This document shows, piece by piece, positions 4,765 to 28,825 of a stretch of DNA of 39,416 nt. The position numbers and the translations under genes are program-made. Each line of letters starts with the position of its first letter. Position 1 is the stretch's first letter. Source of the stretch: Candidatus Shapirobacteria bacterium. Lineage in GTDB: Bacteria > Patescibacteriota > Microgenomatia > UBA12405. The notes below the pieces were generated by a model. The model did not search any database, was not told the DNA's origin, and saw only the letters and a list, made by a program, of their open reading frames with translations. Where the stretch lies: contig JAPLYY010000069.1 of NCBI GenBank assembly GCA_026395315.1, positions 1-39,416 of the forward strand. The letters run 5' to 3'.

Positions 4765-6021
4765 ATGGATCTCACTCCCGATCAGCTTAAACAACTAAAA
4801 GACCTCGGTTTAGATATATCTAATCCCCTATCTTCTATATCTAAAGATATCAGAAACGATCAGCCTTTACCCCCAACTTTAGGTCAAATTCCCGTTGGTC
4901 CGGTTGTTAGCACTCGTCACTTCTCTCTGCTACCTCTACTCTCCATTTCTGGACTTTCTCTCGTTTCTTTTGGCGGCCTGCTCCTCTTTAAATCTAAAGC
5001 CGAAACCCCGTCCGGGCAGATCCCCGTATCTGCCCCCTCTCCCAATCCCCAACAATCTCAAATTGAACCAACTCAGGTTCCCAAATCCATTCAGCACTAC
5101 CTTCTTGCTTCCCAGCAATATTTTAGCAGCGCTTTAGCTGCTCAAAATTGTACGGGCGGACCGACGTGTCCGCCCTCCAACCTCCCCGATCTACTTAACC
5201 AATCCATTCTCACCGCTACCGACGCCATCAAAGACTTCCCCACCGATTTCCGCGGCTACCAGCAACGCGGCTCCATCTATTTATCTTTAATTGACTCGCA
5301 ACCCCAGTTCTTAGATAGCGCCATCGCCGACTTTTCCCGGGCTTCCGAGCTTAATCCTGCCAGCGCCGATATCAGCCGTTCCCTGGCCACTCTCTTTGCC
5401 AAAAAAGGCGATGTTCCCAATACCCTTGCCTACCTTAGCCGCACCGTCGCTATTGAACCTACCAAAGCCCAGAATTTTTATGATTTGGCCAAACTCCAAC
5501 AACAAGCGGGCTTAATTCCCCAAGCTCTTGACACCTACTCAACTCTCCTACCCCTTATCAGTGATCCCGTTCAAAAACAACAGGTCCAAACCGAACTTTC
5601 CTCTCTTGAAAAATTGGCCTCCCAGAATACATCAAACAGTGCTTTACCTTCTCCTTTTACCTCGCCAAAGCCTACTGGCGACGGCGGGTCTATATCACTC
5701 CCCGACCACCCCAATCTAATCCAAGCCAATACCAACCAAGGTCTGATTATCGCCGCCCCGGCCACTTCCCCAGACATTTCTGTCACCAATCTTTCCGCTT
5801 CCAATTCTCTCTCCGGCACCGGTATTCTCCCCGCCAACACTGCTTCTGTTTCTTTTTCCAATTCCCATCTTTCTTCTGCTTCCCAGGTTTACCTCACTAT
5901 CATCAAAGGCGGTACCAACCAGTCACTCCAAGTCCTCAGCCGTTCCACCGACTCCTTCACCGTTGGCCTCGACTCACCCATTTCTGAACCCATCGAGTTC
6001 AAGTGGTGGATTGTGAATTAA
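4765..6021 (+). CDS. Membrane-anchored TPR-repeat protein with a C-terminal domain ending KWWIVN.
   Basis: 418-aa ORF with one hydrophobic helix (LLPLLSISGLSLVSFGGLLLF) and TPR-like helical repeats (RGSIYLSL...ALDTYSTLL). The C-terminal domain aligns with that of the preceding gene. Confidence 0.75.
   Translation: MDLTPDQLKQLKDLGLDISNPLSSISKDIRNDQPLPPTLGQIPVGPVVSTRHFSLLPLLSISGLSLVSFGGLLLFKSKAETPSGQIPVSAPSPNPQQSQIEPTQVPKSIQHYLLASQQYFSSALAAQNCTGGPTCPPSNLPDLLNQSILTATDAIKDFPTDFRGYQQRGSIYLSLIDSQPQFLDSAIADFSRASELNPASADISRSLATLFAKKGDVPNTLAYLSRTVAIEPTKAQNFYDLAKLQQQAGLIPQALDTYSTLLPLISDPVQKQQVQTELSSLEKLASQNTSNSALPSPFTSPKPTGDGGSISLPDHPNLIQANTNQGLIIAAPATSPDISVTNLSASNSLSGTGILPANTASVSFSNSHLSSASQVYLTIIKGGTNQSLQVLSRSTDSFTVGLDSPISEPIEFKWWIVN
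5149..5180 (+). repeat. Family C palindromic element inside a CDS.
   Basis: Sequence tgtacGGGCGGACcgacgtGTCCGCCCtccaa. It encodes CTGGPTCPPS in 4765..6021. Confidence 0.8.
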
Positions 6022-6030
6022 ACCCAATTT

Positions 6031-6068
6031 AAACCCTTCCCCTACCCCTTCCCTTGACAGGGCAGGGG
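6031..6068 (-). repeat. Family A element, G-tract-tail subtype, reverse orientation.
   Basis: Sequence aaacccttcccctaccccttcccttgacagggcagggg. It lies 10 nt after the stop of 4765..6021 and 12 nt before the DUF559 start. Confidence 0.85.
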
Positions 6069-6080
6069 TAAAATTATTTA

Positions 6081-6509
6081 GTGAAAAAAGATATTGTTAT
6101 CGAAGCTAAAACTCAAAAGTACCATCTCCGGTACCGGGATTCCTTAACTTGGGCGGCCAGGAACAATCGAAAGAAAGAGACAGAAGCTGAAAAACTTATT
6201 TGGAATCAATTATTACGAAGAAAAAATCTAGGAGTTAAGTTTGTTAAACAAAAACCAATTGATAGATTCATATTAGATTTCTATTGCTCCAATCTATGTT
6301 TAGCTATTGAAATTGACGGTGGATCTCACAAAGTTAAGTCTGGAAGGGACAACCTCAGGGATAAATATCTTAAAGCCTGTGGTATAACCACACTTCGGTT
6401 TACAAATAAAGAGGTGATCAACAACATAAAAGAAGTTGCAAGAATAATCAGAAAATATATTTCTGATTCCCTTGCCCTGTCAAGGGAAAGGGTTAGGGAT
6501 AGGGTTTAA
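6081..6509 (+). CDS. DUF559 / Vsr-like endonuclease-domain protein.
   Basis: GTG start. The segment TEAEKLIWNQLLRRKNLGVKFVKQKPIDRFILDFYCSNLCLAIEIDGGSHK...LKACGITTLRFTNKEV matches the DUF559 pattern from memory. The last 13 aa and the stop codon come from a family A element. Confidence 0.85.
   Translation: MKKDIVIEAKTQKYHLRYRDSLTWAARNNRKKETEAEKLIWNQLLRRKNLGVKFVKQKPIDRFILDFYCSNLCLAIEIDGGSHKVKSGRDNLRDKYLKACGITTLRFTNKEVINNIKEVARIIRKYISDSLALSRERVRDRV
6469..6507 (+). repeat. Family A element, G-tract-tail subtype.
   Basis: Sequence cccttgccctgtcaagggaaagggttagggatagggttt. It is identical to 8706-8744 and forms the C-terminus (SLALSRERVRDRV) of the DUF559 ORF. Confidence 0.9.
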
Positions 6510-6511
6510 AA

Positions 6512-12667: not shown

Positions 12668-14044
12668 CTACTTTAATTCTCTTATACTTTTCATCTCTAT
12701 CATCTCTCTTCCCATCCCTTTCACCTCTTTTTCTCTCTTTTCCATTCCCCTCACTTTTTTCACTTCGCCAAGTAACGACACTTCTCCAACAAAAACCAAT
12801 CCTTTATTTTGTTTTAAGGCTCCCCTGTCAAGGGGAGTCCCGACAAATGTCGGGAAGGGGTTTGAGCTAAGTGGTTTATCTTTATAACTACTCCACATCG
12901 CCGCCACTACTGCCAGATCACACCCCGTATCATCTAGTCTAATCCCTCCCGTTACTGATACAAAAACATCATCTTTGTACAGTGGAATTCCCAGCACTTT
13001 TTGGGCCACCGCCACCAACAGTTGCCCCCGGTTATAATCAATTCCTGAAAACACCCGTTTTGGTACCGGTGCAAAACTTTCAGTTACCAGCGCTTGAATT
13101 TCCACCATCATCGGTCGGGTCCCTTCCATAGTTACAGTTAAAGCCGAACCAATTTTATTCATCGAGTTCGACTCGACCAAATTTATCTCTTCCGACTTTA
13201 TCTCTCTCAATCCCCCTTCCTCCATTTTAAACACCCCTACTTCGTCCGTCGGCCCAAACCGGTTTTTGTCCACCCGCAAAATTCTCAAATCCGAATTCCG
13301 GTCACCTTCAAAATACAATACCGTGTCCACCATGTGCTCCAGCATTTTTGGTCCGGCTATCTCCCCTTCCTTGGTTACGTGTCCCACAATAAAAATAGCG
13401 ATATTTTTTTTCTTGGCCAATTGGACCAGACGAAAAGTTGCCTCCCTAATTTGGTTCACACTCCCTAGTGCTCCGGAGCCTTCGGCGTAGGACACCATTG
13501 TCTGGATACTGTCCACCACCGCTATTTTGTATACATTTTGTGTTCGTTCTAAAAACTCCTCAATATCCTCAATTGAGTTCGTTTCTAATATGTCGAATTT
13601 GTCCGCCGATAACTTCAGTCTGCTGACTCTCATCCCAATTTGTTCGGCACTTTCCTCTCCTGCCACATACAGTCCTCCCACTTTACCCATTAGTTGGGTT
13701 AATAGTGTACTTTTCCCAATTCCCGGTTCACCTCCAAACAGGACCACCGACCCCAGAACAATTCCTTTACCCAATACTCTATCAAACTCCCCTATTTCCG
13801 ACGTAAACACATTACTAATTGTATGGACAGATCCCTGTATCTGCCCCTCCATTTTCCCTAAGTTTTTTATCGTAGGGGCGCTGCTTGCCTGCGCCCTGTT
13901 TCTCATTTTAGAATTTAGAGTTTTTATATTTCGGATTTCTTTTAATGAGTTCCATTCCCCACACGCATTACACTGCCCCGCCCACTTGGCAAATTCATTG
14001 CCGCAATTACTGCACACAAACACCGTTTCCGCCATTTTCCTCAT
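12668..14044 (-). CDS. radA: DNA repair protein RadA/Sms, carrying two in-frame repeat insertions.
   Basis: Contains the zinc finger CSNCGNEFAKWAGQCNACGEW, Walker A GGEPGIGKSTLL, the KNRFG motif and a Lon-like C-terminal domain. Confidence 0.95.
   Translation of the reverse strand: MRKMAETVFVCSNCGNEFAKWAGQCNACGEWNSLKEIRNIKTLNSKMRNRAQASSAPTIKNLGKMEGQIQGSVHTISNVFTSEIGEFDRVLGKGIVLGSVVLFGGEPGIGKSTLLTQLMGKVGGLYVAGEESAEQIGMRVSRLKLSADKFDILETNSIEDIEEFLERTQNVYKIAVVDSIQTMVSYAEGSGALGSVNQIREATFRLVQLAKKKNIAIFIVGHVTKEGEIAGPKMLEHMVDTVLYFEGDRNSDLRILRVDKNRFGPTDEVGVFKMEEGGLREIKSEEINLVESNSMNKIGSALTVTMEGTRPMMVEIQALVTESFAPVPKRVFSGIDYNRGQLLVAVAQKVLGIPLYKDDVFVSVTGGIRLDDTGCDLAVVAAMWSSYKDKPLSSNPFPTFVGTPLDRGALKQNKGLVFVGEVSLLGEVKKVRGMEKREKEVKGMGREMIEMKSIRELK
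12818..12863 (+). repeat. Family A element inside the radA CDS.
   Basis: Sequence ggctcccctgtcaaggggag-TCCCGACaaatGTCGGGA-aggggttt. It is read as NPFPTFVGTPLDRGAL in radA. Confidence 0.9.
13820..13851 (+). repeat. Family C palindromic element inside the radA CDS.
   Basis: Sequence tgtatGGACAGATccctgtATCTGCCCctcca. It is read as MEGQIQGSVHT in radA. Confidence 0.8.
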
Positions 14045-19995: not shown

Positions 19996-20020
19996 AAAAA
20001 AATAGCCGCGACTCGCGGCC
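19996..20020 (-). terminator. Strong intrinsic-terminator-like hairpin, 30 nt upstream of tRNA-Ala.
   Basis: The minus strand reads GCCGCG-AGT-CGCGGC followed by TATTTTTTTG. Confidence 0.65.
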
Positions 20021-20099
20021 AAAAGCTCTATCTCTCCTAGGGTTCACTTAAACCTAATTTTCCCATTCCGATAAGAAGCTTTCAGCATTAAGTGGAAGT

Positions 20100-20128
20100 A
20101 TTCTACCTAATCTGAATCTGTAAATCAA
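20100..20128 (-). promoter_or_regulatory. Sigma70-type promoter upstream of the tRNA-Ala/23S/5S operon.
   Basis: The minus strand reads TTGATT, a 17-nt spacer, then TAGAAT. Confidence 0.6.
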
Positions 20129-20168
20129 CGACTTAATGTTTCGTTTTTAAAGTAGGGGTTTAGCTCGC

Positions 20169-20816
20169 CTAAACCCGTCTTTTTGATTTTACCCACTCCA
20201 TCATAATCGGCACCACTGAAATCAATACAATCACCACCACCACTAATTCAAAATTAGCTTTGACAAACGGTATGTTTCCAAAAAAGTAACCTCCAAATGT
20301 AAATAATGTCACCCACAATAAACCTCCGACCGCATTATAAGAAATAAATTTGCCGTAATGCATTTTCCCCACTCCCGCCACAAACGGCGCAAATGTTCTC
20401 ACTATCGGCACAAATCTCGCCAAAACAATCGCTATCCCGCCATGTTTATCGTAAAACGCTTGGGCTTTATCCAAATATTCTTTTTTTAATAACCCCGATT
20501 TCATCGTAAAAGCTTTCGGACCAATAAAATGACCGATCCAGTAATTAACCGTATCGCCGACAAACGCCGCTAGCACCATCAAAAACCATAATAAATATAT
20601 ATTAAAGCTCCCTTGGCTCGCCGTAGCGCCAGCGAAGGCGGCGGCCGCAAACAACAAACTGTCCCCCGGTAAAAACGGTGTCACTACCAACCCGGTTTCC
20701 ATAAATATCACAAACCACAACATCGCATACGACCACCCGCCAAAATTGGCAATCACCAAGGCTAAGTTCTTATCAATATGCAGAAACAAATCTATTAGCG
20801 TCTTAATAAAATTCAT
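20169..20816 (-). CDS. DedA family membrane protein.
   Basis: 215 aa and multi-TM, with the DedA-type segments PFLPGDSLLFAAAAF and ARFVPIVRTFAPFVAG. TATACT lies 5 nt upstream of the ATG. Confidence 0.9.
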   Translation of the reverse strand: MNFIKTLIDLFLHIDKNLALVIANFGGWSYAMLWFVIFMETGLVVTPFLPGDSLLFAAAAFAGATASQGSFNIYLLWFLMVLAAFVGDTVNYWIGHFIGPKAFTMKSGLLKKEYLDKAQAFYDKHGGIAIVLARFVPIVRTFAPFVAGVGKMHYGKFISYNAVGGLLWVTLFTFGGYFFGNIPFVKANFELVVVVIVLISVVPIMMEWVKSKRRV

Positions 20817-20838
20817 TTCATAGTATATCTAAAAATTC

Positions 20839-20880
20839 GGCTCCCCTGTCAAGGGGAGCTCCCGTAGGGTGAGGGGTTTT
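20839..20880 (+). repeat. Family A element, variable-hairpin subtype.
   Basis: Sequence ggctcccctgtcaaggggag-CTCCCgtaGGGTG-aggggtttt. It overlaps the GH18 stop codon by 2 nt. Confidence 0.9.
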
Positions 20881-22102
20881 AATTCATTTTTTCTTTCACC
20901 AGCTTCCACAAATCCTTATCTTCCCCCTCATATCCCAACGCCCAAAATCCTACTCCCCCCACCTGCGATTGTTTGGCCAGATCCAACTTCGCTCCCATAC
21001 TGTCCATATTTTCAAAATATGCTTGGTAAGTTCTGGTTATTGGTACTGGTACACTCTGCCACCCATATTTTTTTGTTTTCTTATTCAACACCCTGACCAG
21101 CTTCTGAGTAGACTCCTCGTTTTTAAAACTAACCCACGGCGTCATACTCAGTTCATCCCAATTCTGAACAAAATCAGTAAAATTAGCATATGTCCCGTCC
21201 GCCATTCTCTGCTTTGACTCATTCCAGCTCACCATCCGGCTCCAGTTCTCAACTACTTTCGATTCAAACACTGCCTCAGTTGTCCGCCATTGGTATCCAT
21301 AAAGTGGATATGCCAATACTATTTTGTTTTTTGGTAACTTAGCCTCAATTATCTTTTGGGTTACTTCGGTAATATTTCTTTCTCCGGGCACTGAATTTAT
21401 CGGTGCCACCGGCCCGGCAAAATCCGAACTTGGCTGATGAAAGTCATAGGCCATCACTATAACTTTATCTACCACATTGGCCAACTTTGTTAATCCTACC
21501 GAATCTCCTTTTATCACTGTGTTGGCAAACACATCAATACTGATTTCTCCCCCTACTTCTTTCTTAAATTCATCCAAAAACCCCAAAAAATCATCACTGA
21601 GTACTCTCACCGGATCGCCCATATATTCAAAGTCGATATTAATCCCGTCATAATCCGCCACTTGAGAAATTGCCTTAGTTTCGTCTAAAAGAGTTTTTCT
21701 GGCCGATCCCGACGACACCAAACTATCGATTAATTTAGTGTCAAACAGTTTGATTCCTAAAATGTTCTTACCCCCGTTCTTTTTTATTGTTGTCTTCATT
21801 GTCAGGTAATTCTCATCGTTTATTTTTTTGCCTTGAACATCCCAAATTAAATTACCACTGCTCCCTACATCCACCCCTAAAAAAATCAACTGATCTAAAA
21901 TTCCGTCGTAATTTTGCGTTTTCCCTACCATCCACGTTGGCAAAAACCCGATTATCTCCGGAGTATCTCTCTTAAACACTCCAAACTTTTTCTCTCCCAC
22001 CCAGGGACTGATCAAATTGACTTTTTTTTGCCAAATTATTACCCCCAATCCCATTAAAATTAATAACACCACCCCTATTCCTAACCACTTCCACCACACC
22101 AT
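20879..22102 (-). CDS. Glycoside hydrolase family 18 (chitinase-like) protein with an N-terminal membrane anchor.
   Basis: 407 aa with the catalytic-type motif YDGINIDFEY (DxxDxDxE) and an N-terminal TM segment WLGIGVVLLILMGLGVII. Confidence 0.85.
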   Translation of the reverse strand: MVWWKWLGIGVVLLILMGLGVIIWQKKVNLISPWVGEKKFGVFKRDTPEIIGFLPTWMVGKTQNYDGILDQLIFLGVDVGSSGNLIWDVQGKKINDENYLTMKTTIKKNGGKNILGIKLFDTKLIDSLVSSGSARKTLLDETKAISQVADYDGINIDFEYMGDPVRVLSDDFLGFLDEFKKEVGGEISIDVFANTVIKGDSVGLTKLANVVDKVIVMAYDFHQPSSDFAGPVAPINSVPGERNITEVTQKIIEAKLPKNKIVLAYPLYGYQWRTTEAVFESKVVENWSRMVSWNESKQRMADGTYANFTDFVQNWDELSMTPWVSFKNEESTQKLVRVLNKKTKKYGWQSVPVPITRTYQAYFENMDSMGAKLDLAKQSQVGGVGFWALGYEGEDKDLWKLVKEKMN

Positions 22103-22227
22103 TAACTCTTAATTACCTTCTCCAAGGCAAATTTTATCGTCCGAAACACGTTCCCAATTGAACCGAAGGCAATCAACCCCATTGCCGCCACCATTCCCAT
22201 TATCCTGACTAATGTCCACTTCTTCAT
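22102..22227 (-). CDS. Possible 41-aa membrane peptide, below the ORF-track cutoff.
   Basis: Hand translation gives MKKWTLVRIMGMVAAMGLIAFGSIGNVFRTIKFALEKVIKS. Its TAA overlaps the GH18 ATG (TAATG). Confidence 0.35.
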   Translation of the reverse strand: MKKWTLVRIMGMVAAMGLIAFGSIGNVFRTIKFALEKVIKS

Positions 22228-22256
22228 AACAATATTCTACATTAATAATAAATTTA

Positions 22257-22298
22257 GGTGGGCCTGCCCGCCGTAGTTCCGATTTATCGGAACGAAGG
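22257..22298 (+). repeat. Degenerate A-like element abutting the tRNA-Ile 3' end.
   Basis: Sequence ggtgggcctgcccgccgtag-TTCCGATttaTCGGAA-cgaagg. It resembles 12004-12059. Confidence 0.45.
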
Positions 22299-22372
22299 TG
22301 GGTGATAATAGACTCGAACTATTGACCCCCGTCTTATCAGGACGGTGCTCTAACCAACTGAGCTAATCACCC
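22299..22372 (-). tRNA. tRNA-Ile (anticodon GAU), CCA not encoded.
   Basis: The reverse complement is GGGTGATTAGCTCAGTTGGTTAGAGCACCGTCCTGATAAGACGGGGGTCAATAGTTCGAGTCTATTATCACCCA, which folds as a cloverleaf. Confidence 0.95.
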
Positions 22373-22396
22373 TCGCCAAAACTAAGCTATAGTATA

Positions 22397-23413
22397 TCAA
22401 AATCTTCTCAGAAACATTTCTACTACCTTTCTGGCCACATTAATTCCCGTCGACTTCTCAAATCCCTGAAATTGGCACTGCCGGTTCACCTCCAAAATAA
22501 AACTGTCATAGTCCTCTTCTTTATTGGGGTTTGGACCCTTCATAATATCTACTCCACAGTAATCCAACCCACACACTTTCGCTACCTTTTCGGCTAATCG
22601 TTTATCATCCTCCGACAATTCCCATTTCTCGACCGCTCCTCCCAGTGAAAAATTACTTCTAAATTCATCTCCCACTGCCGATCTTTTCATCCCTCCAATC
22701 GCCTTACCATCTAATACTATTACTCTGATGTCCCACCTGGTTGGTAAATATTTCTGCCACAAAAACATTCCCACATTTTTTTCATTAATTTTTCTAACAA
22801 ATTTCTCCAATTCTTCAAAATTATCAAACTTTTTCACCGATTTTCCTTGGTACCCTTTTTCGTGTTTAGCAATCACCGGCCATCCCAAACCGTAAAAATC
22901 ATCACGTGCGCTACCTGCCCTGTCAAGTCGAAGATCCGCCATGGAGGAGGAAGGTGCCCGAAGGGCGGAAGGGTTTGTTCCAAGAATTTGCTCCTTTGTA
23001 TAAAAAATCTTTGTTGGTACCACCGGAATATCGTTCTTTAAAAATACTCCATGTTGCGAAATCTTCCCCATCCTCGACCATTTCAAATATCCTTCGTGGT
23101 TGGCACAGAACACTGTATGGGCAGACCCATGTGTCTGCCCCTCCAATATTTGAATCAATAAATTTCTCCCCTCGGTATATTTTCCGCTGATCGTCCCTGC
23201 CACCCGAAACCAAATACCCAAAGTATTTTCCGCTGTAATTTCTTCTCCTCTGACAAATGCCCGTGGTTTCCCGTTATTCAAATCAAAGGTCAATTCCCGA
23301 TAAAGTGCCCTGTTAATCTCTACTCCCAATTTTTCTGCCTCCGTTGCCAACCTCTCCACCTCAAATTGGCTTTGTTTCAACGACATCGTAAAAGTGATTA
23401 TTTTTTTATTCAT
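22397..23413 (-). CDS. RimK-like ATP-grasp ligase (paralog A) with two in-frame repeat insertions.
   Basis: ATP-grasp core: WPVIAKHEKGYQGKSVKK, WDIRVIVLDGKAIGGMKR, GLDYCGVDIM, FILEVNRQCQFQGF. Confidence 0.85.
   Translation of the reverse strand: MNKKIITFTMSLKQSQFEVERLATEAEKLGVEINRALYRELTFDLNNGKPRAFVRGEEITAENTLGIWFRVAGTISGKYTEGRNLLIQILEGQTHGSAHTVFCANHEGYLKWSRMGKISQHGVFLKNDIPVVPTKIFYTKEQILGTNPSALRAPSSSMADLRLDRAGSARDDFYGLGWPVIAKHEKGYQGKSVKKFDNFEELEKFVRKINEKNVGMFLWQKYLPTRWDIRVIVLDGKAIGGMKRSAVGDEFRSNFSLGGAVEKWELSEDDKRLAEKVAKVCGLDYCGVDIMKGPNPNKEEDYDSFILEVNRQCQFQGFEKSTGINVARKVVEMFLRRF
22913..22976 (+). repeat. Family B element inside the paralog A CDS.
   Basis: Sequence acctgccctgtcaagtcgaagatccgccatggaggaggaaggt-GCCCgaaGGGC-ggaagggttt. 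It is read as NPSALRAPSSSMADLRLDRAG. Confidence 0.9.
23114..23146 (+). repeat. Family C palindromic element inside the paralog A CDS.
   Basis: Sequence tgtatGGGCAGACccatgtGTCTGCCCctccaa. It is read as LEGQTHGSAHT. Confidence 0.85.
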
Positions 23414-23415
23414 AA

Positions 23416-23463
23416 AAACCCTTTGTCCTTCGATAAACTCAGGACATTTCCCTTCAAGAAGGG
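23416..23463 (-). repeat. Family A-like element, reverse orientation.
   Basis: Sequence aaaccctt-TGTCCttcgataaactcaGGACA-tttCCCTTCaaGAAGGG. Confidence 0.6.
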
Positions 23464-23479
23464 CAATTTAAATAATAAT

Positions 23480-24604
23480 TTATAAACCTCCCTTTTGAAG
23501 GGAGGATTCCGACTTTACGTCGGAAGGTGGGTTTAGTTCTGCTAAAAATTTAACTATTTCTGCCGGCACATCAATCCCCGTCGCTTTCATAAAACCCCTA
23601 AACTGCGGCCCCTTATTTACTTCTAAAATCACATAATCCTTCGGATCATTAGACATTCCTTCTGTGGCTCCCCTGTCAAGGGGAGCTGGCCGTAGGCCTG
23701 AGGGGTTTTTTGCCATTACATCTACCCCCGCCACCGATAATCCACACACCTCTGCCGCCTTCACCGTTAATTGTTTTATATCTTCCGGTAAATCAGCAAT
23801 TTCCACCTTTCCTCCCGTCGAATAATTGTTTCTGAATTCCCCCGCCAGTTGGCGGGTCCTCTTCATCACCCCCAACACTTTCTTTCCCAATATCAACACC
23901 CGATAATCCCCATCGTTGGGAATATATTCCTGCAGCATATATCTTTTCCCTTCTTCCGTTTCCGATTTTCGTAACTTAATTACCAATTTTTCTAATTCAT
24001 TTAAATTATCGGCTTTATATACTCTAGTCCCACGATCACCACCTGAACCTTTTATAATTATTGGAAAAGTAAAGTAGGGGTTTGGCTTGCCCAAACCCTC
24101 ACTCATAATTTCATAAAGATACCAAAGACTCCCATATGTGCTTTTCGGCACCTCAATCCCCGCTTTTTTTAACGCCAACATCTGCCACGCCTTACATGCC
24201 ATACTCGGCTTCCCACCTAACACCAACGGATCCACCACAATCGGTCCTTTCGTGGCTCCCCTGTCAAGGGGAGCTGGTCCGCCAGCTGGCGGACCTGAGG
24301 GGTTTAATCCGCCAACGATAAGGTCCACTTCTTCCCAATGTTTCCCTGTTGTTCTAAAAAATAAGACATCATAGTCATTTATATCCAGCCATCCCTCATT
24401 TTTGATTGTATGGACAGACCGGTGTGTCTGTCCCTCCACATCACTCAAATTACCTCGGATTTTGACCTTTTGTTCTTGAGTATCAAATGTCACTCTGTTA
24501 TAAGACACCAAATCCAATCTTACTCCCATCTTTTTCGCCGCTTTCTTAATCAACACCAAATGTTGGCTTATTTTTCCCCCAAAAAACAATGCAATTTTAT
24601 TCAT
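23480..24604 (-). CDS. RimK-like ATP-grasp ligase (paralog B) with four repeat-derived segments.
   Basis: ATP-grasp core: FPIIIKGSGGDRGTRVYK, GDYRVLILGKKVLGVMKR, GLSVAGVDVM, VILEVNKGPQFRGF. Confidence 0.85.
   Translation of the reverse strand: MNKIALFFGGKISQHLVLIKKAAKKMGVRLDLVSYNRVTFDTQEQKVKIRGNLSDVEGQTHRSVHTIKNEGWLDINDYDVLFFRTTGKHWEEVDLIVGGLNPSGPPAGGPAPLDRGATKGPIVVDPLVLGGKPSMACKAWQMLALKKAGIEVPKSTYGSLWYLYEIMSEGLGKPNPYFTFPIIIKGSGGDRGTRVYKADNLNELEKLVIKLRKSETEEGKRYMLQEYIPNDGDYRVLILGKKVLGVMKRTRQLAGEFRNNYSTGGKVEIADLPEDIKQLTVKAAEVCGLSVAGVDVMAKNPSGLRPAPLDRGATEGMSNDPKDYVILEVNKGPQFRGFMKATGIDVPAEIVKFLAELNPPSDVKSESSLQKGGL
23487..23534 (+). repeat. Family A element, variable-hairpin subtype with a TTTG loop.
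   Basis: Sequence CCTCCCTtttgAAGGGAGGat-TCCGACtttacGTCGGA-aggtgggttt. It supplies the C-terminus (NPPSDVKSESSLQKGGL) and stop of paralog B. Confidence 0.85.
23666..23708 (+). repeat. Family A element inside the paralog B CDS.
   Basis: Identical to 12620-12662. It is read as NPSGLRPAPLDRGAT. Confidence 0.9.
24254..24305 (+). repeat. Family A element inside the paralog B CDS.
   Basis: Sequence ggctcccctgtcaaggggagct-GGTCCGCCagctGGCGGACC-tgaggggttt. It is read as NPSGPPAGGPAPLDRGAT. Confidence 0.9.
24407..24438 (+). repeat. Family C palindromic element inside the paralog B CDS.
   Basis: Sequence tgtatGGACAGACcggtgtGTCTGTCCctcca. It is read as VEGQTHRSVHT. Confidence 0.85.
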
Positions 24605-24605
24605 A

Positions 24606-26069
24606 TTATTTATTTATTTTCATAATTTTTAAGGCTCCCCTGTCAAGGGGAGCTCCCGCCTTAGCGGGTGAGGGGTTTGATTTTGCGCTAACTAAAAACC
24701 CCTCTAGATCTTTTCTCCCTAACAAAAATTTCGTTCTCAATTTATCTCTATCCGCCACATTCACCGCCGTCATCACCCTTCTTCCTTTTAGCCAGAAACT
24801 GACCCCGATTACCGGTCTGTCTTTGTGCTTACCCAAACTCGACCGATAATGCCGATAATACAATACTCTATTTTCTCCCAACAGACCCAATTTCTCTGCT
24901 AAGACTCTGTCAATCGAGCTTCGATACGCTCCGGTATCAATTTTGGCCCTCACCTCCACCACTCGGTGTTTACCTTGCTTGATAATCGGGCTTTTCTGCA
25001 AATCAGGCTTAAATCCTTTGGGAATTTTCATTCTGATTATTTCAATCGGTTGGACTGTTTTATTTTTTTCCTTCTCTTCTACCTTCTCAAAAAACTTTTC
25101 CCCGAATAAATATTTCGCCACTGAAATGGCATGATCCGCACTTCTCACCTCAATATCCTCCACCTTATCCATTCGTGTCTTTAGCCCTGCTTTATTACAA
25201 ATCTGAATTGACAATCCCGGTCTGGCGTTCACTTCCAACACCAGCGGCCCTTTTTCCTTGTCCAACACTACATCCACTCCCAAAAACCCCAACCCGGAAA
25301 CTGCTTTTTGACAATTAATTGCTGTTTCCATTATTTCCCGCCACATTGGAATTTTTATTCCGTTCACCTTAATTGGTTTCTTTCTCCCAAAATCATAAAT
25401 TCGCTTCACCTCTTCATCTTTTCCTTCGATTCCAAAAGTTGTTATCCCTGTTGCCAAGTCAATTCCTAAACCATAGGCTCCCTGTTGTAGATTAGCTTTA
25501 CCGCCGCTTTTCTCTGTCGGAATCCTTAGCATGGCCATCACCGGAATTTTATTAAATACAATTACCCGAATATCCGGCGTCCCCGAATGGGTATAACTAA
25601 AGAACATCGGGTGAATCTTAATTCTTTCCTCCACGATTACCGCATCCAGCATCCCGTGCAGACTATACTTTCCTGCCAAAATCTCCTGACAATGTCTTTT
25701 TAAGTCATCTAAACTAATTGTCTTCCCGTTCATCATTTGCCACCCCTCTGCCCTGTCAAGGGAAGGGTTGGGGAAGGGTTTTGTCTTTTTTCTTATTATT
25801 AGTATCCCTTCTCCCCCATATCCTGTCACCGGCTTCACCACAAAATTCCCTTCTAGTCCATTCCAATTAAAATTTTCCACCCCGTTAACTGTTTTAAACC
25901 GTTCAATCAGCTTTGGTACTCCTATCCCCGCCTTCCCTAAAATTCTTTTTGTCTTATATTTACTATCGGCTATAGCTCTCCCCTCAACATTGTTTTTCCT
26001 TAAATACTCCCGGTTTCTCTGGTTCTTCGTCAAAAACTGCCGGTATTGTTTTAAATTTATTCCGAACAT
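24606..26069 (-). CDS. ATP-grasp (alpha-L-glutamate-ligase-like) protein fused to a C-terminal retropepsin-like (DUF785/RimB-type) domain.
   Basis: ATP-grasp motifs are NFVVKPVTGYGGEGILII and FLGVDVVLDKEKGPLVLEVNARPGLS. The C-terminal domain has AKIDTGAYRSSID (D-T-G-A). The start was moved to the ATG at 26069, because the longer ORF begins inside a repeat and overlaps the upstream gene. Confidence 0.8.
   Translation of the reverse strand: MFGINLKQYRQFLTKNQRNREYLRKNNVEGRAIADSKYKTKRILGKAGIGVPKLIERFKTVNGVENFNWNGLEGNFVVKPVTGYGGEGILIIRKKTKPFPNPSLDRAEGWQMMNGKTISLDDLKRHCQEILAGKYSLHGMLDAVIVEERIKIHPMFFSYTHSGTPDIRVIVFNKIPVMAMLRIPTEKSGGKANLQQGAYGLGIDLATGITTFGIEGKDEEVKRIYDFGRKKPIKVNGIKIPMWREIMETAINCQKAVSGLGFLGVDVVLDKEKGPLVLEVNARPGLSIQICNKAGLKTRMDKVEDIEVRSADHAISVAKYLFGEKFFEKVEEKEKNKTVQPIEIIRMKIPKGFKPDLQKSPIIKQGKHRVVEVRAKIDTGAYRSSIDRVLAEKLGLLGENRVLYYRHYRSSLGKHKDRPVIGVSFWLKGRRVMTAVNVADRDKLRTKFLLGRKDLEGFLVSAKSNPSPAKAGAPLDRGALKIMKINK
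24633..24678 (+). repeat. Family A element at the 3' end of the ATP-grasp/retropepsin CDS.
   Basis: Sequence ggctcccctgtcaaggggagct-CCCGCcttaGCGGG-tgaggggttt. It is read as NPSPAKAGAPLDRGAL, 8 codons before the stop. Confidence 0.9.
25745..25782 (+). repeat. Family A element, G-tract-tail subtype, inside the ATP-grasp/retropepsin CDS.
   Basis: Sequence cctctgccctgtcaagggaagggttggggaagggtttt. It is read as KPFPNPSLDRAEG. Confidence 0.9.
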
Positions 26070-26086
26070 AATTGTATTTTCATTAT

Positions 26087-26126
26087 GGCCCTCCCTGTCA
26101 AGGGAGGGGTCTTGGGGGTGGGTTTT
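26087..26126 (+). repeat. Family A element, G-tract-tail subtype.
   Basis: Sequence ggCCCTCCCTgtcaAGGGAGGGgtcttgggggtgggtttt. It overlaps the stop of 26125..26958 by 2 nt. Confidence 0.85.
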
Positions 26127-26958
26127 AACCTTTTTTCCGTATCGCCTTTGCAAATCTTTTTATCTCCACTAATCTAATCCCCGTATAACTTCCCACCAGC
26201 AGATTAACTACTAGTACTACTATTAATGTCAATTCCGGCTGCCCGATCACCCACTCCTGTACTTCCCTTACTCCCATCAACAACGCTCCTGCCACTGCTA
26301 AAACCAAAGTTCCTAAAGTTAAAGAAAATGCCTCTTTTCTACTTTTAGCCAATTGGGTTCTGGAAAACTCTTCTACTAATAGGACCATAAATAACACCGG
26401 AAAAATCGATATCTTACTCAGATCGAACAATTCAAGATAGGACGTCCCGATCATTAATCCGAAAGTCCCTACTGAAATAAACAATAAATTAATCGATCTT
26501 GCCGGCCAAAAATGTAATTTGAATCTTTTTAGCAGGTAATTGCTCACAATCGACACTATCAAAACGGTGGCAAACAATAGTACTCCCCCCAATATCCCCG
26601 TCGCCAAAAACACCACCGCAATCATTGTCGGAATAAATATGCCGTAACCCGACAATCCCACCATATAATGTAATACCGACACAATCGTGGCCACCAACGG
26701 CAACATTAACAACAATACAATTGTATTCGACGCTACTCCCCGATCAATTCCGATCCGTATCAATTTTTGAATCGAATTAAATCCGTTCCATTTCATCGTT
26801 TCCGCTTCCATTAAATTATTACTCTTTGTCAATAATGTCGGCGTAACCACGTTTGACGTGGTCGGTGTCACCACTATCTGTTTCACCGCTATCACGTCAA
26901 TTTTTGCCCAAACTAACCACCCCAAACACACCAATATTAAAATTATATATTTTTTCAT
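26125..26958 (-). CDS. 7-TM membrane protein of the type associated with ATP-grasp/retropepsin clusters (7TM_transglut-like).
   Basis: 277 aa with a signal/anchor and about 7 helices. GIFIPTMIA, LLVEEFSRT and the terminal GSYTGIRLVEIKRF resemble that family from memory. Confidence 0.65.
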   Translation of the reverse strand: MKKYIILILVCLGWLVWAKIDVIAVKQIVVTPTTSNVVTPTLLTKSNNLMEAETMKWNGFNSIQKLIRIGIDRGVASNTIVLLLMLPLVATIVSVLHYMVGLSGYGIFIPTMIAVVFLATGILGGVLLFATVLIVSIVSNYLLKRFKLHFWPARSINLLFISVGTFGLMIGTSYLELFDLSKISIFPVLFMVLLVEEFSRTQLAKSRKEAFSLTLGTLVLAVAGALLMGVREVQEWVIGQPELTLIVVLVVNLLVGSYTGIRLVEIKRFAKAIRKKG

Positions 26959-27041
26959 TGAATTGTGGCGTATTATAACACTCCTTTTGCCTTTCTTTCC
27001 CCTTGTTTAATTTTTTACTCACATTTAGTATACTTCCTTTA

Positions 27042-27377
27042 ATGAATCGTCTCCTAGCTGATGTTATTATTGGCAATACTCCAATTAATGGTAATGAAAC
27101 TCTTGCCCAAACTTACCCCAATATTGGTACTCTCGTTGGTGTTATCCTCAAAAACTCTCTGGTCATCATTGGCATCATTTTACTTGGCCTTTTGATTTAT
27201 GGCGGTCTTCTCTTTATAATCAATGCAGGCAGTAGTGACAGCAAAAAATTAGCCCAGGCTCAAACTATCTTGACTGACGCCGTCATTGGCTTTGTTGTTG
27301 TTCTCCTTGCCTTCATCGTTATTCAAATTATTCAAACAATTACCGGCTTAAATATTCTTAATAACACCACTTTATAA
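27042..27377 (+). CDS. VirB2/TrbC-like type IV secretion pilin paralog 1.
   Basis: Two hydrophobic helices flank AGSSDSKKLAQAQTILTDAVIG. ATG 27042 was preferred over TTG 27003, which coincides with a -35-like TTGTTT. Confidence 0.7.
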   Translation: MNRLLADVIIGNTPINGNETLAQTYPNIGTLVGVILKNSLVIIGIILLGLLIYGGLLFIINAGSSDSKKLAQAQTILTDAVIGFVVVLLAFIVIQIIQTITGLNILNNTTL

Positions 27378-27379
27378 TT

Positions 27380-27709
27380 ATGTTTGCTGGCATCTTCGGA
27401 GACATCACCAACCCCACCCAATACACCGGTACCAACGGTGAGGGTCTTTTTAAATTTATCAGTCAAATATTTCAACTCACCGGCATTGTCGCCGGCATTT
27501 ATTTTGCCGTAAATCTCATTTTAGCCGGTTACATGTACTTGTCTGCCAACGGCGATATTAAAAAAACCGAACAAGCTTGGAATAAAATCTGGCAAAGCAT
27601 TTTAGGGATGGTCATTGTTGCCTCCGCTTTCGTTCTGGCTTCCGTTATTGGCAATCTTCTCGGTATCGACATTATCCATCCCGTCATTAAAGGACCAAAT
27701 GACCTATAA
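27380..27709 (+). CDS. T4SS pilin paralog 2.
   Basis: ITNPTQY N-terminus and two TM helices flanking SANGDIKKTEQAWNKIWQSILG. Confidence 0.75.
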   Translation: MFAGIFGDITNPTQYTGTNGEGLFKFISQIFQLTGIVAGIYFAVNLILAGYMYLSANGDIKKTEQAWNKIWQSILGMVIVASAFVLASVIGNLLGIDIIHPVIKGPNDL

Positions 27710-28058
27710 CCTACTAGCTGTCGTCTACCCTCCTCTCATCGGCCCGGGCATCCAGCCCACCGCCAACCCCGTCGGTGTTCTCGAAACCATTATCAGCACC
27801 ATTGTCGGTGTTTTAACTATTGTCGCCGTCATTTTCTTTGCTATCCAGATTATCTTTGCCGGTTACTCTTTCATCAGTTCTGAAGGTGATGCCAAAAAGA
27901 TGGAAGAAGCTCGTAAAAAACTTACCGAAGGCGTTTTGGGAGTCTTTATTGTTGTCATTGCTCTCGGTGCCGCTGCCCTCATTGGCCGTCTCACCGGTCT
28001 CGGTGGCAATGTCCTCGATCTCCAATCTTTATTAAGTAAACTAAAAATTCAACCATGA
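27699..28058 (+). CDS. T4SS pilin paralog 3.
   Basis: An internal ATG was chosen (11-nt overlap with paralog 2). Two TM helices flank SSEGDAKKMEEARKKLTEGVLG. Confidence 0.7.
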   Translation: MTYNLLAVVYPPLIGPGIQPTANPVGVLETIISTIVGVLTIVAVIFFAIQIIFAGYSFISSEGDAKKMEEARKKLTEGVLGVFIVVIALGAAALIGRLTGLGGNVLDLQSLLSKLKIQP

Positions 28059-28402
28059 AATCTTTCATCCAGCCAGTCTACGCCGCTATTACCAACCCCG
28101 CTCTTACCAATCCTTCCGCCCAATCATCTCCCAACTATGTTAATACCGTCCTTCAAAATGTCTTTAGCCTTTTTATGGTGTTAGGTGTCATTTATTTTAT
28201 TTGGCACTTTGTTTTTGCCGGTTATCACTATATGGGTGCTCAAGGTGATTCCAAAAAAATCGAAATCGCTCAAACTGAGCTTACCAATGCCATGATTGGT
28301 CTTGGCGTTGTCTTCGTCGTCTTTGCCATTCTTAAACTTATCGGCACTGTCGCCGGTATCAAAGGTCTTGACACTCTTCAATTTACTTTACCTTCTTTAT
28401 AA
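28055..28402 (+). CDS. T4SS pilin paralog 4.
   Basis: ATGA start/stop overlap with paralog 3. Signal-like MKSFIQPVYA, then ITNPALTNP and GAQGDSKKIEIAQTELTNAMIG. Confidence 0.8.
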   Translation: MKSFIQPVYAAITNPALTNPSAQSSPNYVNTVLQNVFSLFMVLGVIYFIWHFVFAGYHYMGAQGDSKKIEIAQTELTNAMIGLGVVFVVFAILKLIGTVAGIKGLDTLQFTLPSL

Positions 28403-28448
28403 AACACGCTATAATTCACTAATAAATTATTATTTAACCTAATACTCA

Positions 28449-28805: not shown

Positions 28806-28825
28806 TTCTTTTTTATCTCTTCGTT

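What the first reader, a model, noticed from the sequence alone, without database searches (positions are those of the whole stretch)
22913..25782. Three adjacent ATP-grasp genes contain eight repeat-derived in-frame segments
The segments are distributed as follows.

- Paralog A carries a family B copy (22913) and a family C copy (23114).
- Paralog B carries family A copies at 23487 (which supplies the C-terminus and stop), 23666 and 24254, plus a family C copy at 24407.
- The ATP-grasp/retropepsin gene carries family A copies at 24633 (near the C-terminus) and 25745.

The elements are read in the same relative orientation and frame, giving the recurrent peptide NPS...(A)PLDRGA or EGQTH.S.HT. 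The insertion positions are not homologous between paralogs A and B, so these were independent events. Only in-frame, stop-free insertions appear to have survived.
Basis: seen in the sequence. Interest (0 to 1): 0.75.

Follow-up and report, generated by a model that had tools for sequence, protein, structure and literature searches.

The report
Structured DNA repeats translated inside genes
Three neighbouring, intact enzyme genes of an uncultivated Candidatus Shapirobacteria bacterium each carry copies of short GC-rich structured DNA repeats, inserted in frame into flexible protein loops, a Rickettsia-like phenomenon that here involves BoxC/triplex-motif repeats previously reported as always intergenic in E. 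coli.

Summary
All eight segments are copies of repeats that also occur between genes in the same window. The 12-nt core occurs 16 times against 0.2 expected. The three ATP-grasp genes are intact, and each segment is read in frame.

Each segment is an indel relative to syntenic orthologues and is flanked by conserved ATP-grasp residues. In an AlphaFold model of paralog B, the four segments are the only long coil stretches of low confidence.

New points:
- The same loops are insertion hot spots in 120 orthologues and in both paralogs. They carry different lineage-specific repeat families.
- RadA, and probably a TPR gene, in the window are affected too.
- "Family A" has the architecture of BoxC/PIT/TMECO intrastrand-triplex repeats: a hairpin plus a mirror-repeat tail. 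In E. coli these were described as always intergenic.
- Its 20-nt hairpin occurs verbatim in Firmicutes and Bifidobacterium genomes.
- Genes for DUF559, a Vsr-like nuclease, are bracketed by such repeats in at least seven bacterial lineages. These include this window and E. coli ycjD.

Best reading: these are RPE-like coding repeat insertions filtered by selection. How they spread is uncertain; DUF559-initiated recombination is a plausible but unproven mechanism.

The parts
22397..23413 (-). Paralog A, an intact RimK-type ATP-grasp gene (338 aa)
   Evidence: Pfam RimK 3e-27. It aligns along its full length with 5 syntenic orthologues at 73-81% identity.
22914..22981 (-). Family B repeat inside paralog A, read as NPSALRAPSSSMADLRLDRAG
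   Evidence: 43 nt are 98% identical to the intergenic copy at 11909-11951 (D18 and D14). The segment is absent from L003, L004 and L005, while L001 and L006 carry other elements at the same loop. The loop is homologous to paralog B hot spot 3.
23114..23145 (-). Family C hairpin inside paralog A, read as EGQTHGSAHT
   Evidence: D16/D17. It is a 6-7 codon insertion absent from all 5 orthologues. The loop is homologous to paralog B hot spot 2.
23480..24604 (-). Paralog B, an intact RimK-type ATP-grasp gene (374 aa; insertion-free orthologues are about 308-325 aa)
   Evidence: Pfam RimK 2e-24. The 120 listed orthologues range from 308 to 398 aa.
23486..23531 (-). Divergent triplex-motif repeat forming the C-terminal tail NPPSDVKSESSLQKGG of paralog B
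   Evidence: Its layout is ACCTCCC / GGGAGGA / hairpin / AGGTGGG. The tail is absent from most orthologues, which end in ...SLKK. pLDDT is below 50 for residues 362-374.
23663..23707 (-). Family A repeat inside paralog B (loop 4), read as NPSGLRPAPLDRGA
   Evidence: It is 42/42 identical to the intergenic copy at 12620-12661. 101 of 120 orthologues have the short AFRDxDxxKP loop instead. pLDDT is below 50 for residues 302-312.
24254..24304 (-). Family A repeat inside paralog B (loop 2), read as NPSGPPAGGPAPLDRGA
   Evidence: D2 and (51 nt). In orthologues this loop is empty or holds other repeat families. pLDDT is below 50 for residues 105-118.
24407..24438 (-). Family C hairpin inside paralog B (loop 1), read as EGQTHRSVHT
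   Evidence: D16. The stem shows compensatory changes relative to other copies. The insert is variable or absent in orthologues. pLDDT is below 50 for residues 53-66.
24606..26069 (-). ATPgrasp_ST gene with a weak (sub-threshold) retropepsin-like (RimB-like) C-terminal region (487 aa from the ATG at 26069)
   Evidence: Pfam ATPgrasp_ST 3.5e-59 and weak retropepsin-like hits below the Pfam/NCBIfam thresholds. The start is set by the orthologue alignment.
24633..24677 (-). Family A repeat 8 codons before the stop of the third gene, read as NPSPAKAGAPLDRGA
   Evidence: 45 nt. It is absent from L003, L004 and L006. L001 has a related copy with a different middle hairpin.
25745..25782 (-). BoxC-like C-tract repeat inside the third gene, read as KPFPNPSLDRAEG
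   Evidence: 89% identical to the copy at 16271-16308 (D11). It is absent from L003 and L005. L001, L004 and L006 carry three different elements at the same site.
26089..26128 (-). Intergenic copy between the 7TM_transglut gene and the third ATP-grasp gene; not a coding copy
   Evidence: It lies upstream of the true start at 26069.
12668..14044 (-). RadA/Sms gene carrying two further coding copies, at 12818-12862 (family A) and 13820-13851 (family C)
   Evidence: Both segments are variable or absent among 120 RadA orthologues.
4765..6021 (+). TPR gene on the + strand carrying two family C copies (5009-5040, 5154-5176), read on the opposite strand of the element
   Evidence: No orthologue comparison was made.
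6026..6510 (+). DUF559 (Vsr-like nuclease) ORF at 6081-6509, bracketed by inverted BoxC-like repeats at 6028-6068 and 6469-6509
   Evidence: I4 and Pfam DUF559 6e-28. The same bracketing is seen at most other DUF559 loci examined, from at least seven bacterial lineages.

Best explanation
**What it is.** The eight segments are copies of short (30-70 nt) GC-rich structured repeats that populate this Candidatus Shapirobacteria genome.
- Most have a hairpin, CTCCCC-TTGACA-GGGGAG.
- A tail follows that is the mirror repeat of one hairpin arm. An extra perfect hairpin often sits between the two.
- This is the architecture of BoxC/PIT/TMECO intrastrand-triplex motifs.
- A second family (C) is a plain hairpin.

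**How it got there (inferred).**
- Copies normally sit between genes, often right after the stop codon of the upstream gene. They also enter coding DNA.
- Only copies survive whose length keeps the frame, that lack stop codons, and that fall in surface loops or C-terminal tails.
- Surviving copies are translated into Pro/Gly/Ser/Asp-rich disordered loops of 10-18 residues that the ATP-grasp fold tolerates.

**Shown.** Repeat identity, in-frame reading, indel status against orthologues, loop location, recurrence at the same loops in orthologues and paralogs, and the triplex-motif architecture.

**Inferred.** Translation of the inserts, the selection filter, and the mode of spread.

**Spread.** Cut-and-paste with target duplications is not supported. 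Near-identical alleles that differ by an element also differ in the adjacent 25-40 nt. I therefore favour break-induced recombination or gene conversion. It may be initiated by the DUF559 Vsr-like nuclease, whose genes are flanked by these repeats. I put about 0.35 on that step alone.
For: **Repeats far above chance.**

**Intact ATP-grasp genes.**

**Indels against orthologues.**
- Every segment falls in a gap of at least one syntenic orthologue, and conserved residues flank it.
- L003 lacks all of them.

**Structure.** In the AlphaFold2 model of paralog B, the four segments are the only stretches of ten or more residues with pLDDT below 50, and all are coil.

**Hot spots.**
- 120 orthologues of paralog B vary in length at the same 5-6 sites. 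The sites hold many recognisable repeat-peptide families.
- Paralogs A and B share the hot-spot loops although they are only 37% identical. This argues for permissive loops rather than a DNA target.

**Other genes.** RadA shows the same pattern.

**Frame and length.**
- Intragenic family-A copies are 42, 45, 45 and 51 nt long and all use sense frame 0.
- Intergenic copies are 40, 40, 42 and 42 nt long.
- The intergenic copy at 12620-12661 is 42/42 identical to the coding copy at 23666-23707.

**Architecture.**
- Hairpin stems and the mirror tail co-vary.
- They match the published TMECO pattern, including the TTA second loop (PMC4666352).

**Patchy alleles.**

**DUF559 association.**
Against: - There are no expression or proteomic data, so translation of the inserts is inferred only from frame and stop-codon statistics.
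- Only 39 kb of this genome is available, so the coding-versus-intergenic census and the frame bias rest on small numbers.
- No clean empty-versus-filled site with target-site duplication was found. The insertion chemistry is therefore unknown.
- Recurrent occupation of the same loops by different families could reflect replacement of an old insert rather than independent insertions.
- The DUF559 link is an association. In element-dense CPR genomes many genes are flanked by repeats. In the window itself the bracketing of DUF559 is not statistically remarkable.
- Holder et al. found no mobility gene near E. coli TMECO sites.
Confidence: 0.8

Rival explanations
1. The elements are classical non-autonomous transposable elements (MITE or REP/REPIN-like). 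A conventional transposase encoded elsewhere in the genome, for example a RAYT/IS200-type Y1 enzyme, moves them. Coding copies are simple transposition events.
For: - Many near-identical copies exist.
- Some form inverted pairs (4643-4732, 8660-8750), as REPINs do.
- 13 of 16 core copies and 6 of 6 family C copies share one chromosomal orientation. Elements that insert through single-stranded DNA show such a bias.
Against: - No transposase recurs next to the elements in about 118 loci from other genomes.
- None was seen among the 13 window proteins scanned.
- There is no conserved GTAG-type REP head.
- Two near-identical allele pairs showed no target-site duplication or clean boundary.
- The middle hairpin is hypervariable, with 62 variants in 129 copies. 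That is unusual for copy-paste progeny.
Confidence: 0.25
2. Transposition plays no part. The loops are old variable regions. They are repeatedly overwritten by gene conversion from intergenic repeats, or exchanged between lineages by homologous recombination of divergent alleles.
For: - In alleles 96-99% identical elsewhere, the 25-40 nt next to the element are strongly diverged.
- The same loops carry different families in different lineages.
- The 42-mer at loop 4 is almost unchanged between orthologues that are only 63-71% identical in protein.
Against: - This does not explain how an element first reaches a loop of a protein whose orthologues have a short, well-conserved turn. 101 of 120 orthologues have AFRDxDxxKP at loop 4.
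- It needs a source of homology between coding loops and intergenic repeats.
Confidence: 0.2
3. The inserted sequences were kept because they do something useful. They could act as peptide modules (linkers, interaction motifs). They could also act as RNA or DNA structures inside the message, affecting translation pausing, mRNA stability or internal promoters through the TTGACA loop.
For: - Coding copies keep perfect stems and the mirror tail.
- The middle hairpins carry UNCG-type loops on the mRNA-sense strand.
- The element sequence is more conserved than neighbouring codons.
- All 7 window copies with this hairpin use one of the four open frames.
Against: - Occupancy is mosaic, and many orthologues lack any insert at each site.
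- Unrelated proteins carry the same peptides.
- AlphaFold predicts disordered coil.
- Promoter and terminator scans show no systematic signal.
- Earlier work found no promoter or terminator activity for E. coli PIT elements (PMC4666352).
Confidence: 0.1
4. The conserved 12-mer CCCTTGACAGGG is a DNA-uptake-type signal. Biased uptake and recombination drive it into the genome, including into coding regions.
For: - The density is about one copy per 2.5 kb.
- Copies are often placed just downstream of genes, and inverted pairs occur, as with Neisseria DUS.
- Alleles look like recombination patches.
Against: - The same 20-mer and the whole modular architecture occur in Firmicutes, Bifidobacterium and other phyla.
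- Uptake sequences arise by substitution, not as 40-70 nt indels.
- Uptake sequences do not have a mirror-repeat tail or a hypervariable hairpin.
Confidence: 0.04
5. The inserts are not translated. They are removed from the message or bypassed by the ribosome, as in T4 gene 60 or the mitochondrial byp elements.
For: They are stable GC-rich hairpins inside ORFs of an AT-richer genome.
Against: - Every coding copy examined here and in the aligned orthologues keeps the frame and lacks stops.
- That would not be required if the inserts were skipped.
- Intergenic copies do include lengths not divisible by three.
Confidence: 0.03

Closest known systems
Rickettsia palindromic elements (RPEs; Ogata et al. 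2000 and 2002, as summarised in PMC10969869)
   Same: - Selfish-looking palindromic repeats occur both between genes and in frame inside unrelated, still-functional protein genes.
- They encode recurrent peptides.
- They sit at positions compatible with the fold.
   Different: - The elements here are 30-70 nt, against about 100-150 nt for RPEs, and are unrelated in sequence.
- They come from a different phylum (CPR/Patescibacteria).
- Several families coexist.
- Density is much higher: 8 copies in 3 genes, and at least 12 coding copies in 39 kb.
- The same loops are re-used across orthologues and paralogs.
BoxC / PIT / TMECO intrastrand-triplex motif repeats (Holder et al. 2015, PMC4666352; Hoyne/Maher 2000, as cited there)
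   Same: - Both have a C-rich stem, a loop, a G-rich stem, a short second loop and a mirror G-rich stem.
- Window 6469-6505 reads CCCTTGCCC-TGTCAA-GGGAAAGGG-TTA-GGGATAGGG-T.
- TMECO no. 2 reads CCCTCTCCC-TTGA-GGGAGAGGG-TTA-GGGTGAGGG-T.
- Both are multi-copy, both form inverted pairs, and both are linked to locally unstable sequence.
   Different: - The stems differ from the E. coli consensus.
- In family A the 3-nt second loop is replaced by a hypervariable perfect hairpin.
- In E. coli the motif is 'always intergenic', whereas here copies are translated inside genes.
- That paper reported no associated mobility function. Here DUF559 nuclease genes are found flanked by the motif.
REP/REPIN elements and their RAYT transposases
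   Same: - Both are short extragenic palindromes, often in inverted pairs.
- In both, a single-copy enzyme gene is itself bracketed by inverted copies of the repeat.
   Different: - The bracketed gene here is a Vsr-like PD-(D/E)XK nuclease (DUF559), not a Y1 transposase.
- There is no GTAG head.
- No mobilisation has been demonstrated.
GC clusters and byp elements of yeast mitochondrial genomes (from my own knowledge, not checked here)
   Same: Both are GC-rich palindromic mini-elements that invade coding regions of an AT-rich genome.
   Different: byp elements are bypassed by the ribosome and need not keep the frame. The elements here always keep it.

Membership tests
Coding palindromic repeat insertions of the RPE type (functional class) | The same repeat family is present in many copies, both intergenic and inside ORFs. 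| tested here: met
   The core occurs 16 times and family C 6 times. At least 12 copies lie inside 5 genes.
Coding palindromic repeat insertions of the RPE type (functional class) | Copies inside genes are in frame, stop-free, and absent from orthologues. | tested here: met
Coding palindromic repeat insertions of the RPE type (functional class) | Insertion sites are compatible with the protein fold (surface or loops). | tested here: met
   In the AlphaFold2 model the four inserts of paralog B are the only long coil segments with pLDDT below 50. The paralogs share these loops. This rests on a prediction, not a solved structure.
Rickettsia palindromic elements proper (RPE-1 to RPE-10) | Element of about 100-150 bp belonging to the Rickettsia families. 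| tested here: not met
   The elements are 30-70 nt and the organism is Candidatus Shapirobacteria. No sequence comparison with RPE consensus sequences was run.
BoxC / PIT / TMECO intrastrand-triplex motifs | C-rich stem, loop of 3-6 nt, complementary G-rich stem, second loop, then a G-rich stem that mirrors the first. | tested here: met
   A custom scan finds this layout, with 6-8 nt stems and at most one mismatch, in the copies at 12622, 20841, 23486, 23668, 24256, 24635, 26089, 34210 and others. Stems and mirror tail co-vary.
BoxC / PIT / TMECO intrastrand-triplex motifs | The exact TMECO consensus CCCTCNCCC N3-6 GGGNGAGGG N3 GGGNGAGGG. | tested here: not met
   The window copies have different stems (CCCTTGCCC / GGGAAAGGG / GGGATAGGG, or CTCCCCT / AGGGGAG / GAGGGGT). 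Family A has a 12-23 nt hairpin in place of N3. This is a variant, not the E. coli family itself.
BoxC / PIT / TMECO intrastrand-triplex motifs | Forms a stable intrastrand triplex. | not testable with these tools
   This needs CD, NMR or footprinting as in PMC4666352.
MITE | Terminal inverted repeats plus a target-site duplication at insertion sites. | tested here: not met
   Two filled-versus-empty allele pairs show no duplication, and their flanks are diverged. Only two pairs were examined.
REP/REPIN-RAYT system | A Y1 (RAYT) transposase gene flanked by inverted REPs, and REPs with a conserved 5' GTAG. | tested here: inconclusive
   No Y1 transposase was found among the 13 window proteins scanned or among recurrent neighbours of the repeat in about 118 loci. 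The rest of the genome is not available. There is no GTAG head.
RimK-type / ATP-grasp ligases (host genes) | A match to the ATP-grasp domain above the curated threshold, with conserved catalytic-region motifs. | tested here: met
   Pfam RimK scores 95.8 and 86.7 bits against a cut-off of 21. ATPgrasp_ST scores 200.7 bits against a cut-off of 31.4. Invariant motifs are retained in the alignments.

The most novel reading that the evidence does not exclude
BoxC/PIT-type triplex-motif repeats are not orphan sequences. They are the non-autonomous partners of a small selfish unit that encodes a DUF559 (Vsr-like PD-(D/E)XK) nuclease and is bracketed by the same repeats.
- This would be a pan-bacterial analogue of the REP/RAYT pair.
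- The evidence spans CPR, Firmicutes, Cyanobacteria, Alpha-, Beta- and Gammaproteobacteria (including E. coli ycjD next to TMECO no. 9) and Deinococcus.
- The nuclease would nick or cut at the structured repeat. Repair by recombination would then copy repeats, with short flanking patches, to new sites.
- In the small genomes of Candidatus Shapirobacteria, this process would have become a major source of length variation in protein loops.
Probability: 0.3. Interest if true: 0.88.

Novelty: new variant of a known kind. Interest (0 to 1): 0.72.

Why it matters
- **RPE parallel.** In-frame colonisation of genes by selfish repeats has essentially one textbook case, the Rickettsia RPEs. If this holds, the same thing happens at higher density and with several repeat families in the Candidate Phyla Radiation. 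A single orthologous enzyme there carries different repeat-derived loops in dozens of lineages.
- **Practical consequences.**
  - It is a ready-made natural experiment on which loops of a fold tolerate insertions.
  - It is a caution for annotating CPR proteins and predicting their structures.
  - It may explain part of the 'unusual insertions' and length variation seen in CPR proteins.
- **BoxC link.** The work connects these elements to BoxC/PIT triplex motifs. Their origin and function in E. coli have been unexplained since the 1990s.
- **A testable lead.** It points to a concrete candidate enzyme, DUF559/YcjD, which makes that old question directly testable.

Tried and rejected
- **Rfam.** The gathering-threshold scan of the window found only rRNA and tRNA. 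E-value scans of repeat-bearing loci gave only spurious miRNA hits. The element is not a described RNA family.
- **Promoter and terminator scans.** Only a few intergenic copies fit an intrinsic-terminator rule (20859-20840, 14197-14174, 28826-28849). Only a few supply a TTGACA -35 box with a usable -10. There is no systematic signal.
- **Recurrent transposase next to the repeat.** I looked in about 118 loci from other genomes. Only housekeeping clusters recurred.
- **Literature.**
  - Searches for the core sequence and for CPR or Patescibacteria with MITE, REP or palindromic elements found nothing relevant.
  - The DUF559 literature shows no link to repeats.
- **Target-site duplications.** Clean filled-versus-empty comparisons showed none. 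The flanks were diverged instead.
- **Coding copies in Firmicutes.** Whether these copies are also coding is inconclusive, because long spurious ORFs are common in GC-rich DNA.
- **DNA-uptake-sequence idea.** I considered it and set it aside because of the cross-phylum identity and the indel nature of the segments.
- **Not run.**
  - I did not search the proteome for PLDRGA or EGQTH peptides, because only this contig of the genome is available.
  - I left one homologous-protein search and the representative-library search unused.

Full report
**1. The observation**

The window is a 39.4-kb contig of a Candidatus Shapirobacteria MAG (CPR, Microgenomates). Paralog B is 100% identical to NCBI protein NTY75_03545.

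Three adjacent genes on the - strand are ATP-grasp enzymes:
- 22397-23413: RimK family, 338 aa (paralog A).
- 23480-24604: RimK family, 374 aa (paralog B).
- 24606-26069: ATPgrasp_ST with weak, sub-threshold retropepsin/RimB-like hits in its C-terminal part.

The mechanical ORF of the third gene runs to 26153. Orthologues all start at MFGINLKQY, which is the ATG at 26069.

- The 12-nt core CCCTGTCAAGGG occurs 16 times against 0.21 expected.
- The family C hairpin occurs 6 times against 0 expected.
- All eight segments lie inside the ORFs and are read without stops. They give NPS...PLDRGA-type or EGQTH.S.HT peptides.

**2. The segments are insertions and the genes are intact**

Synteny is conserved in six related contigs, L001-L006. 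The gene order is 7TM_transglut, ATPgrasp_ST/retropepsin, RimK-B, RimK-A, GH18, VTT.

Protein and codon alignments show two things.
- Every segment falls in a gap of at least one orthologue, and L003 lacks them all.
- The flanking ATP-grasp motifs are invariant.

An AlphaFold2 model of paralog B has a mean pLDDT of 73. Its only stretches of ten or more residues below pLDDT 50 are residues 53-66, 105-118, 302-312 and 362-374. All are coil, and they are exactly the four repeat-derived segments.

**3. Hot-spot loops**

The 120 listed orthologues of paralog B range from 308 to 398 aa. Almost all the length variation sits at five or six sites.

The inserts there fall into recognisable repeat-peptide families:
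- ...PLD(R/K)G... and ...LPLTG..., the two open sense frames of the TTGACA hairpin.
- EGQT..S.HT (family C).
- ITNYEL/ISNFQ.
- QxIFxSGESAxQAQ.
- AMSAGRQ.
- GDHEGRPY.

Occupancy is mosaic, even between proteins about 95% identical in their core.

At the DNA level, one loop can hold a different element in five of six orthologues.

Profile-profile alignment of the two paralogs gives a probability of 99.9%. It places both inserts of paralog A in loops homologous to hot spots 2 and 3 of paralog B. The KGPNPN stretch of paralog A falls at hot spot 4. The paralogs share only 37% identity. The recurrence is therefore better explained by permissive loops than by a DNA target.

The conclusion of independent events still stands.

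**4. The phenomenon is not specific to ATP-grasp genes**

- RadA/Sms (12668-14044) carries one family A copy and one family C copy. Both are variable or absent among 120 orthologues.
- A + strand TPR gene (4765-6021) carries two family C copies read on the other strand. No orthologue comparison was made for it.
- All six family C copies keep one chromosomal orientation whatever the gene strand.

**5. What the elements are**

In the orientation that matches the mRNA of the - strand genes, every copy has three parts:
- It starts with AAACCC(C)T.
- It then has either a C-tract or a short perfect hairpin.
- It ends with a hairpin, (G)CTCCCC-TTGACA-GGGGAG(CC).

The 5' tail is not complementary to the hairpin. 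It is the mirror repeat of one arm, and the stems and tail co-vary.

This is the architecture of intrastrand-triplex motifs. They were first described as BoxC, then as PIT elements, then as TMECO (Holder et al. 2015, PMC4666352).
- Window 6469-6505 reads CCCTTGCCC-TGTCAA-GGGAAAGGG-TTA-GGGATAGGG-T.
- TMECO no. 2 reads CCCTCTCCC-TTGA-GGGAGAGGG-TTA-GGGTGAGGG-T.

In family A the 3-nt second loop is replaced by a hairpin. I found 62 different versions of it among 129 copies.
- Nearly all are perfect stems (mean 5.7 bp, against 3.1 bp in shuffles).
- They are capped by UNCG-type loops on the sense strand.

That paper states that TMECO is 'always located intergenically' in E. coli. It also states that no mobility function was found nearby. 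Rfam holds no matching family.

**6. Frame and length statistics**

The window holds eight full family-A copies.
- The four intragenic copies are 42, 45, 45 and 51 nt long, and all use sense frame 0.
- The four intergenic copies are 40, 40, 42 and 42 nt long.
- Four of the six frames are open in most copies; the remaining sense frame contains TGA.
- The intergenic copy at 12620-12661 is 42/42 identical to the coding copy at 23666-23707.
- Nearly the same sequence (34 of 36 aligned nt) sits at the same loop in an orthologue that is only 71% identical in protein.

The element is therefore more conserved than the codons around it. That points to recent copying, homogenisation, or constraint at the nucleic-acid level.

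**7. How the elements spread**

Two allele pairs are 96-99% identical elsewhere and differ by the presence of a TTGACA element. Neither shows a target-site duplication. In both, the 25-40 nt next to the element are heavily diverged. This looks like an imported patch, that is recombination or gene conversion, rather than cut-and-paste.

The exact 20-mer GCTCCCCTTGACAGGGGAGC occurs in more than 118 stretches of species-representative genomes, where about one is expected by chance.
- It occurs in other Shapirobacteria.
- It also occurs in many copies in Oscillospiraceae, Ruminococcus and Bifidobacterium.
- Most of those copies show the same modular layout.

No transposase recurs next to these copies.

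**8. The DUF559 lead**

This lies outside the given coordinates.

In the window, a DUF559 (Vsr-like PD-(D/E)XK) ORF at 6081-6509 is bracketed by inverted BoxC-like copies (I4). By itself this is weak evidence in an element-dense genome.

Three further lines of evidence support it.
- Of eight full-length metagenomic relatives, five are tightly bracketed by inverted hairpin arms. Three of those pairs are 100% complementary over 21-32 nt. A sixth relative is flanked by direct copies.
- Among the loci fetched only because they contain the 20-mer, phmmer finds four DUF559 ORFs (L037, L044, L060, L074). L037, L060 and L074 have the 20-mer hairpin within about 75 nt of the ORF. L044 has a one-base variant of the hairpin about 170 nt downstream, and its other flank runs off the locus.
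- DUF559 genes were sampled from Picosynechococcus, Pseudanabaena, Sphingomonas, Deinococcus, Neisseria gonorrhoeae and E. coli. All have TM-type repeats close by, as inverted pairs around the gene in the first five and at its 3' end in E. coli.

In E. coli the gene is ycjD.
- A degenerate motif overlaps its 3' end.
- TMECO no. 9 lies about 180 nt downstream.
- As I recall it (not checked here), this ycjD-fabI region is where BoxC was first noticed.

Close DUF559 relatives sit in different genomic contexts. None of the 25 DUF559 papers in the searchable library appeared, from title and abstract, to link it with repeats, and the two I opened did not.

The analogy is the RAYT gene flanked by inverted REPs. 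That DUF559 propagates the repeats is an inference, not a result.

**9. Verdict**

The finding is real and more general than reported. It is an RPE-like colonisation of protein loops by structured repeats in a CPR lineage.

It involves a variant of the BoxC/PIT triplex-motif family, previously described as strictly intergenic in E. coli. Loop re-use across orthologues and paralogs is striking.

I rate it a new variant of a known kind. The most novel reading that the evidence does not exclude is a DUF559-BoxC mobile system.

Noticed in passing
window 6026-6510; loci L129-L136, L037, L044, L060, L074, L141-L147: DUF559 (Vsr-like nuclease) genes are bracketed by triplex-motif/BoxC-like repeats in CPR, Firmicutes, Cyanobacteria, Sphingomonas, Deinococcus and Neisseria. 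In E. coli (ycjD, next to TMECO no. 9) the repeats lie at and downstream of the 3' end. Several arm pairs are 100% complementary.
   Followed up: partly
window 23666-23685 and other family A copies; loci L007-L124: The exact 20-mer GCTCCCCTTGACAGGGGAGC and, in most copies, the whole tail, hairpin, hairpin layout recur in many copies in Oscillospiraceae, Ruminococcus and Bifidobacterium genomes. About one chance match is expected in 596 Gb.
   Followed up: partly
window family A copies; 129 copies in all loci: The middle hairpin of family A is hypervariable (62 versions) but almost always a perfect stem. It is capped by UNCG-type loops (TTCG, TACG, TGCG, TCCG) on the TTGACA strand, which suggests constraint at the RNA level or a terminator-like origin.
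   Followed up: partly
window 16062-22372: The 23S rRNA gene (16370-19662) is 3293 nt against a 2925-nt model, so it carries insertions. tRNA-Ile (22297-22372) and tRNA-Ala (19890-19966) are separated by two protein genes (GH18 and VTT). A repeat copy sits between the 5S and 23S genes (16271-16308). The syntenic locus L001 has LAGLIDADG genes in the equivalent region.
   Followed up: no
window 4643-4686, 6026-6069, 6469-6510, 8706-8747, 14177-14218: The C-tract tails read like telomere repeats (AAACCCTAACCCTACCC). Their complements are runs of four G3 tracts with 2-3 nt loops, which is a canonical G-quadruplex pattern as well as a triplex motif.
   Followed up: no
loci L001-L006 and proteins P0002-P0120: Related Shapirobacteria carry other repeat families translated at the same loops. 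One is AT-rich, AATTACGAATTACGAA (ITNYEL). Another is a 60-100 nt hairpin family (QxIFxSGESAxQAQ, SQHNFCSAHTNVATLRLRAEK). Others encode CCTGCCGGCAGG (AMSAGRQ) and GDHEGRPY.
   Followed up: partly
window 20169-26958 and L001-L006: A conserved gene cluster runs 7TM_transglut, ATPgrasp_ST with a weak (sub-threshold) retropepsin-like C-terminal region, then two RimK-type ligases. It lies next to a block of six small T4SS_pilin-like genes (27003-29276) that share an internal repeat (D9). It looks like a peptide-ligation or modification system of unknown substrate.
   Followed up: no
window 819-4649: A 1276-aa ORF has an internal periodic DNA repeat, spaced irregularly at about 150-560 nt (GGCAACGTCGGCATCGGGACAACC...; families D5-D8, D13 and D15). 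It is probably a repetitive surface protein.
   Followed up: no
window 9944-11188: A Rho termination factor gene is present. This bears on whether the hairpin repeats need to act as intrinsic terminators.
   Followed up: no
L146 336-380 (E. coli, upstream of ycjD): A perfect 19-bp inverted repeat, TCACCTCATTCTGACAAGA / TCTTGTCAGAATGAGGTGA, sits directly before the ycjD start codon.
   Followed up: no
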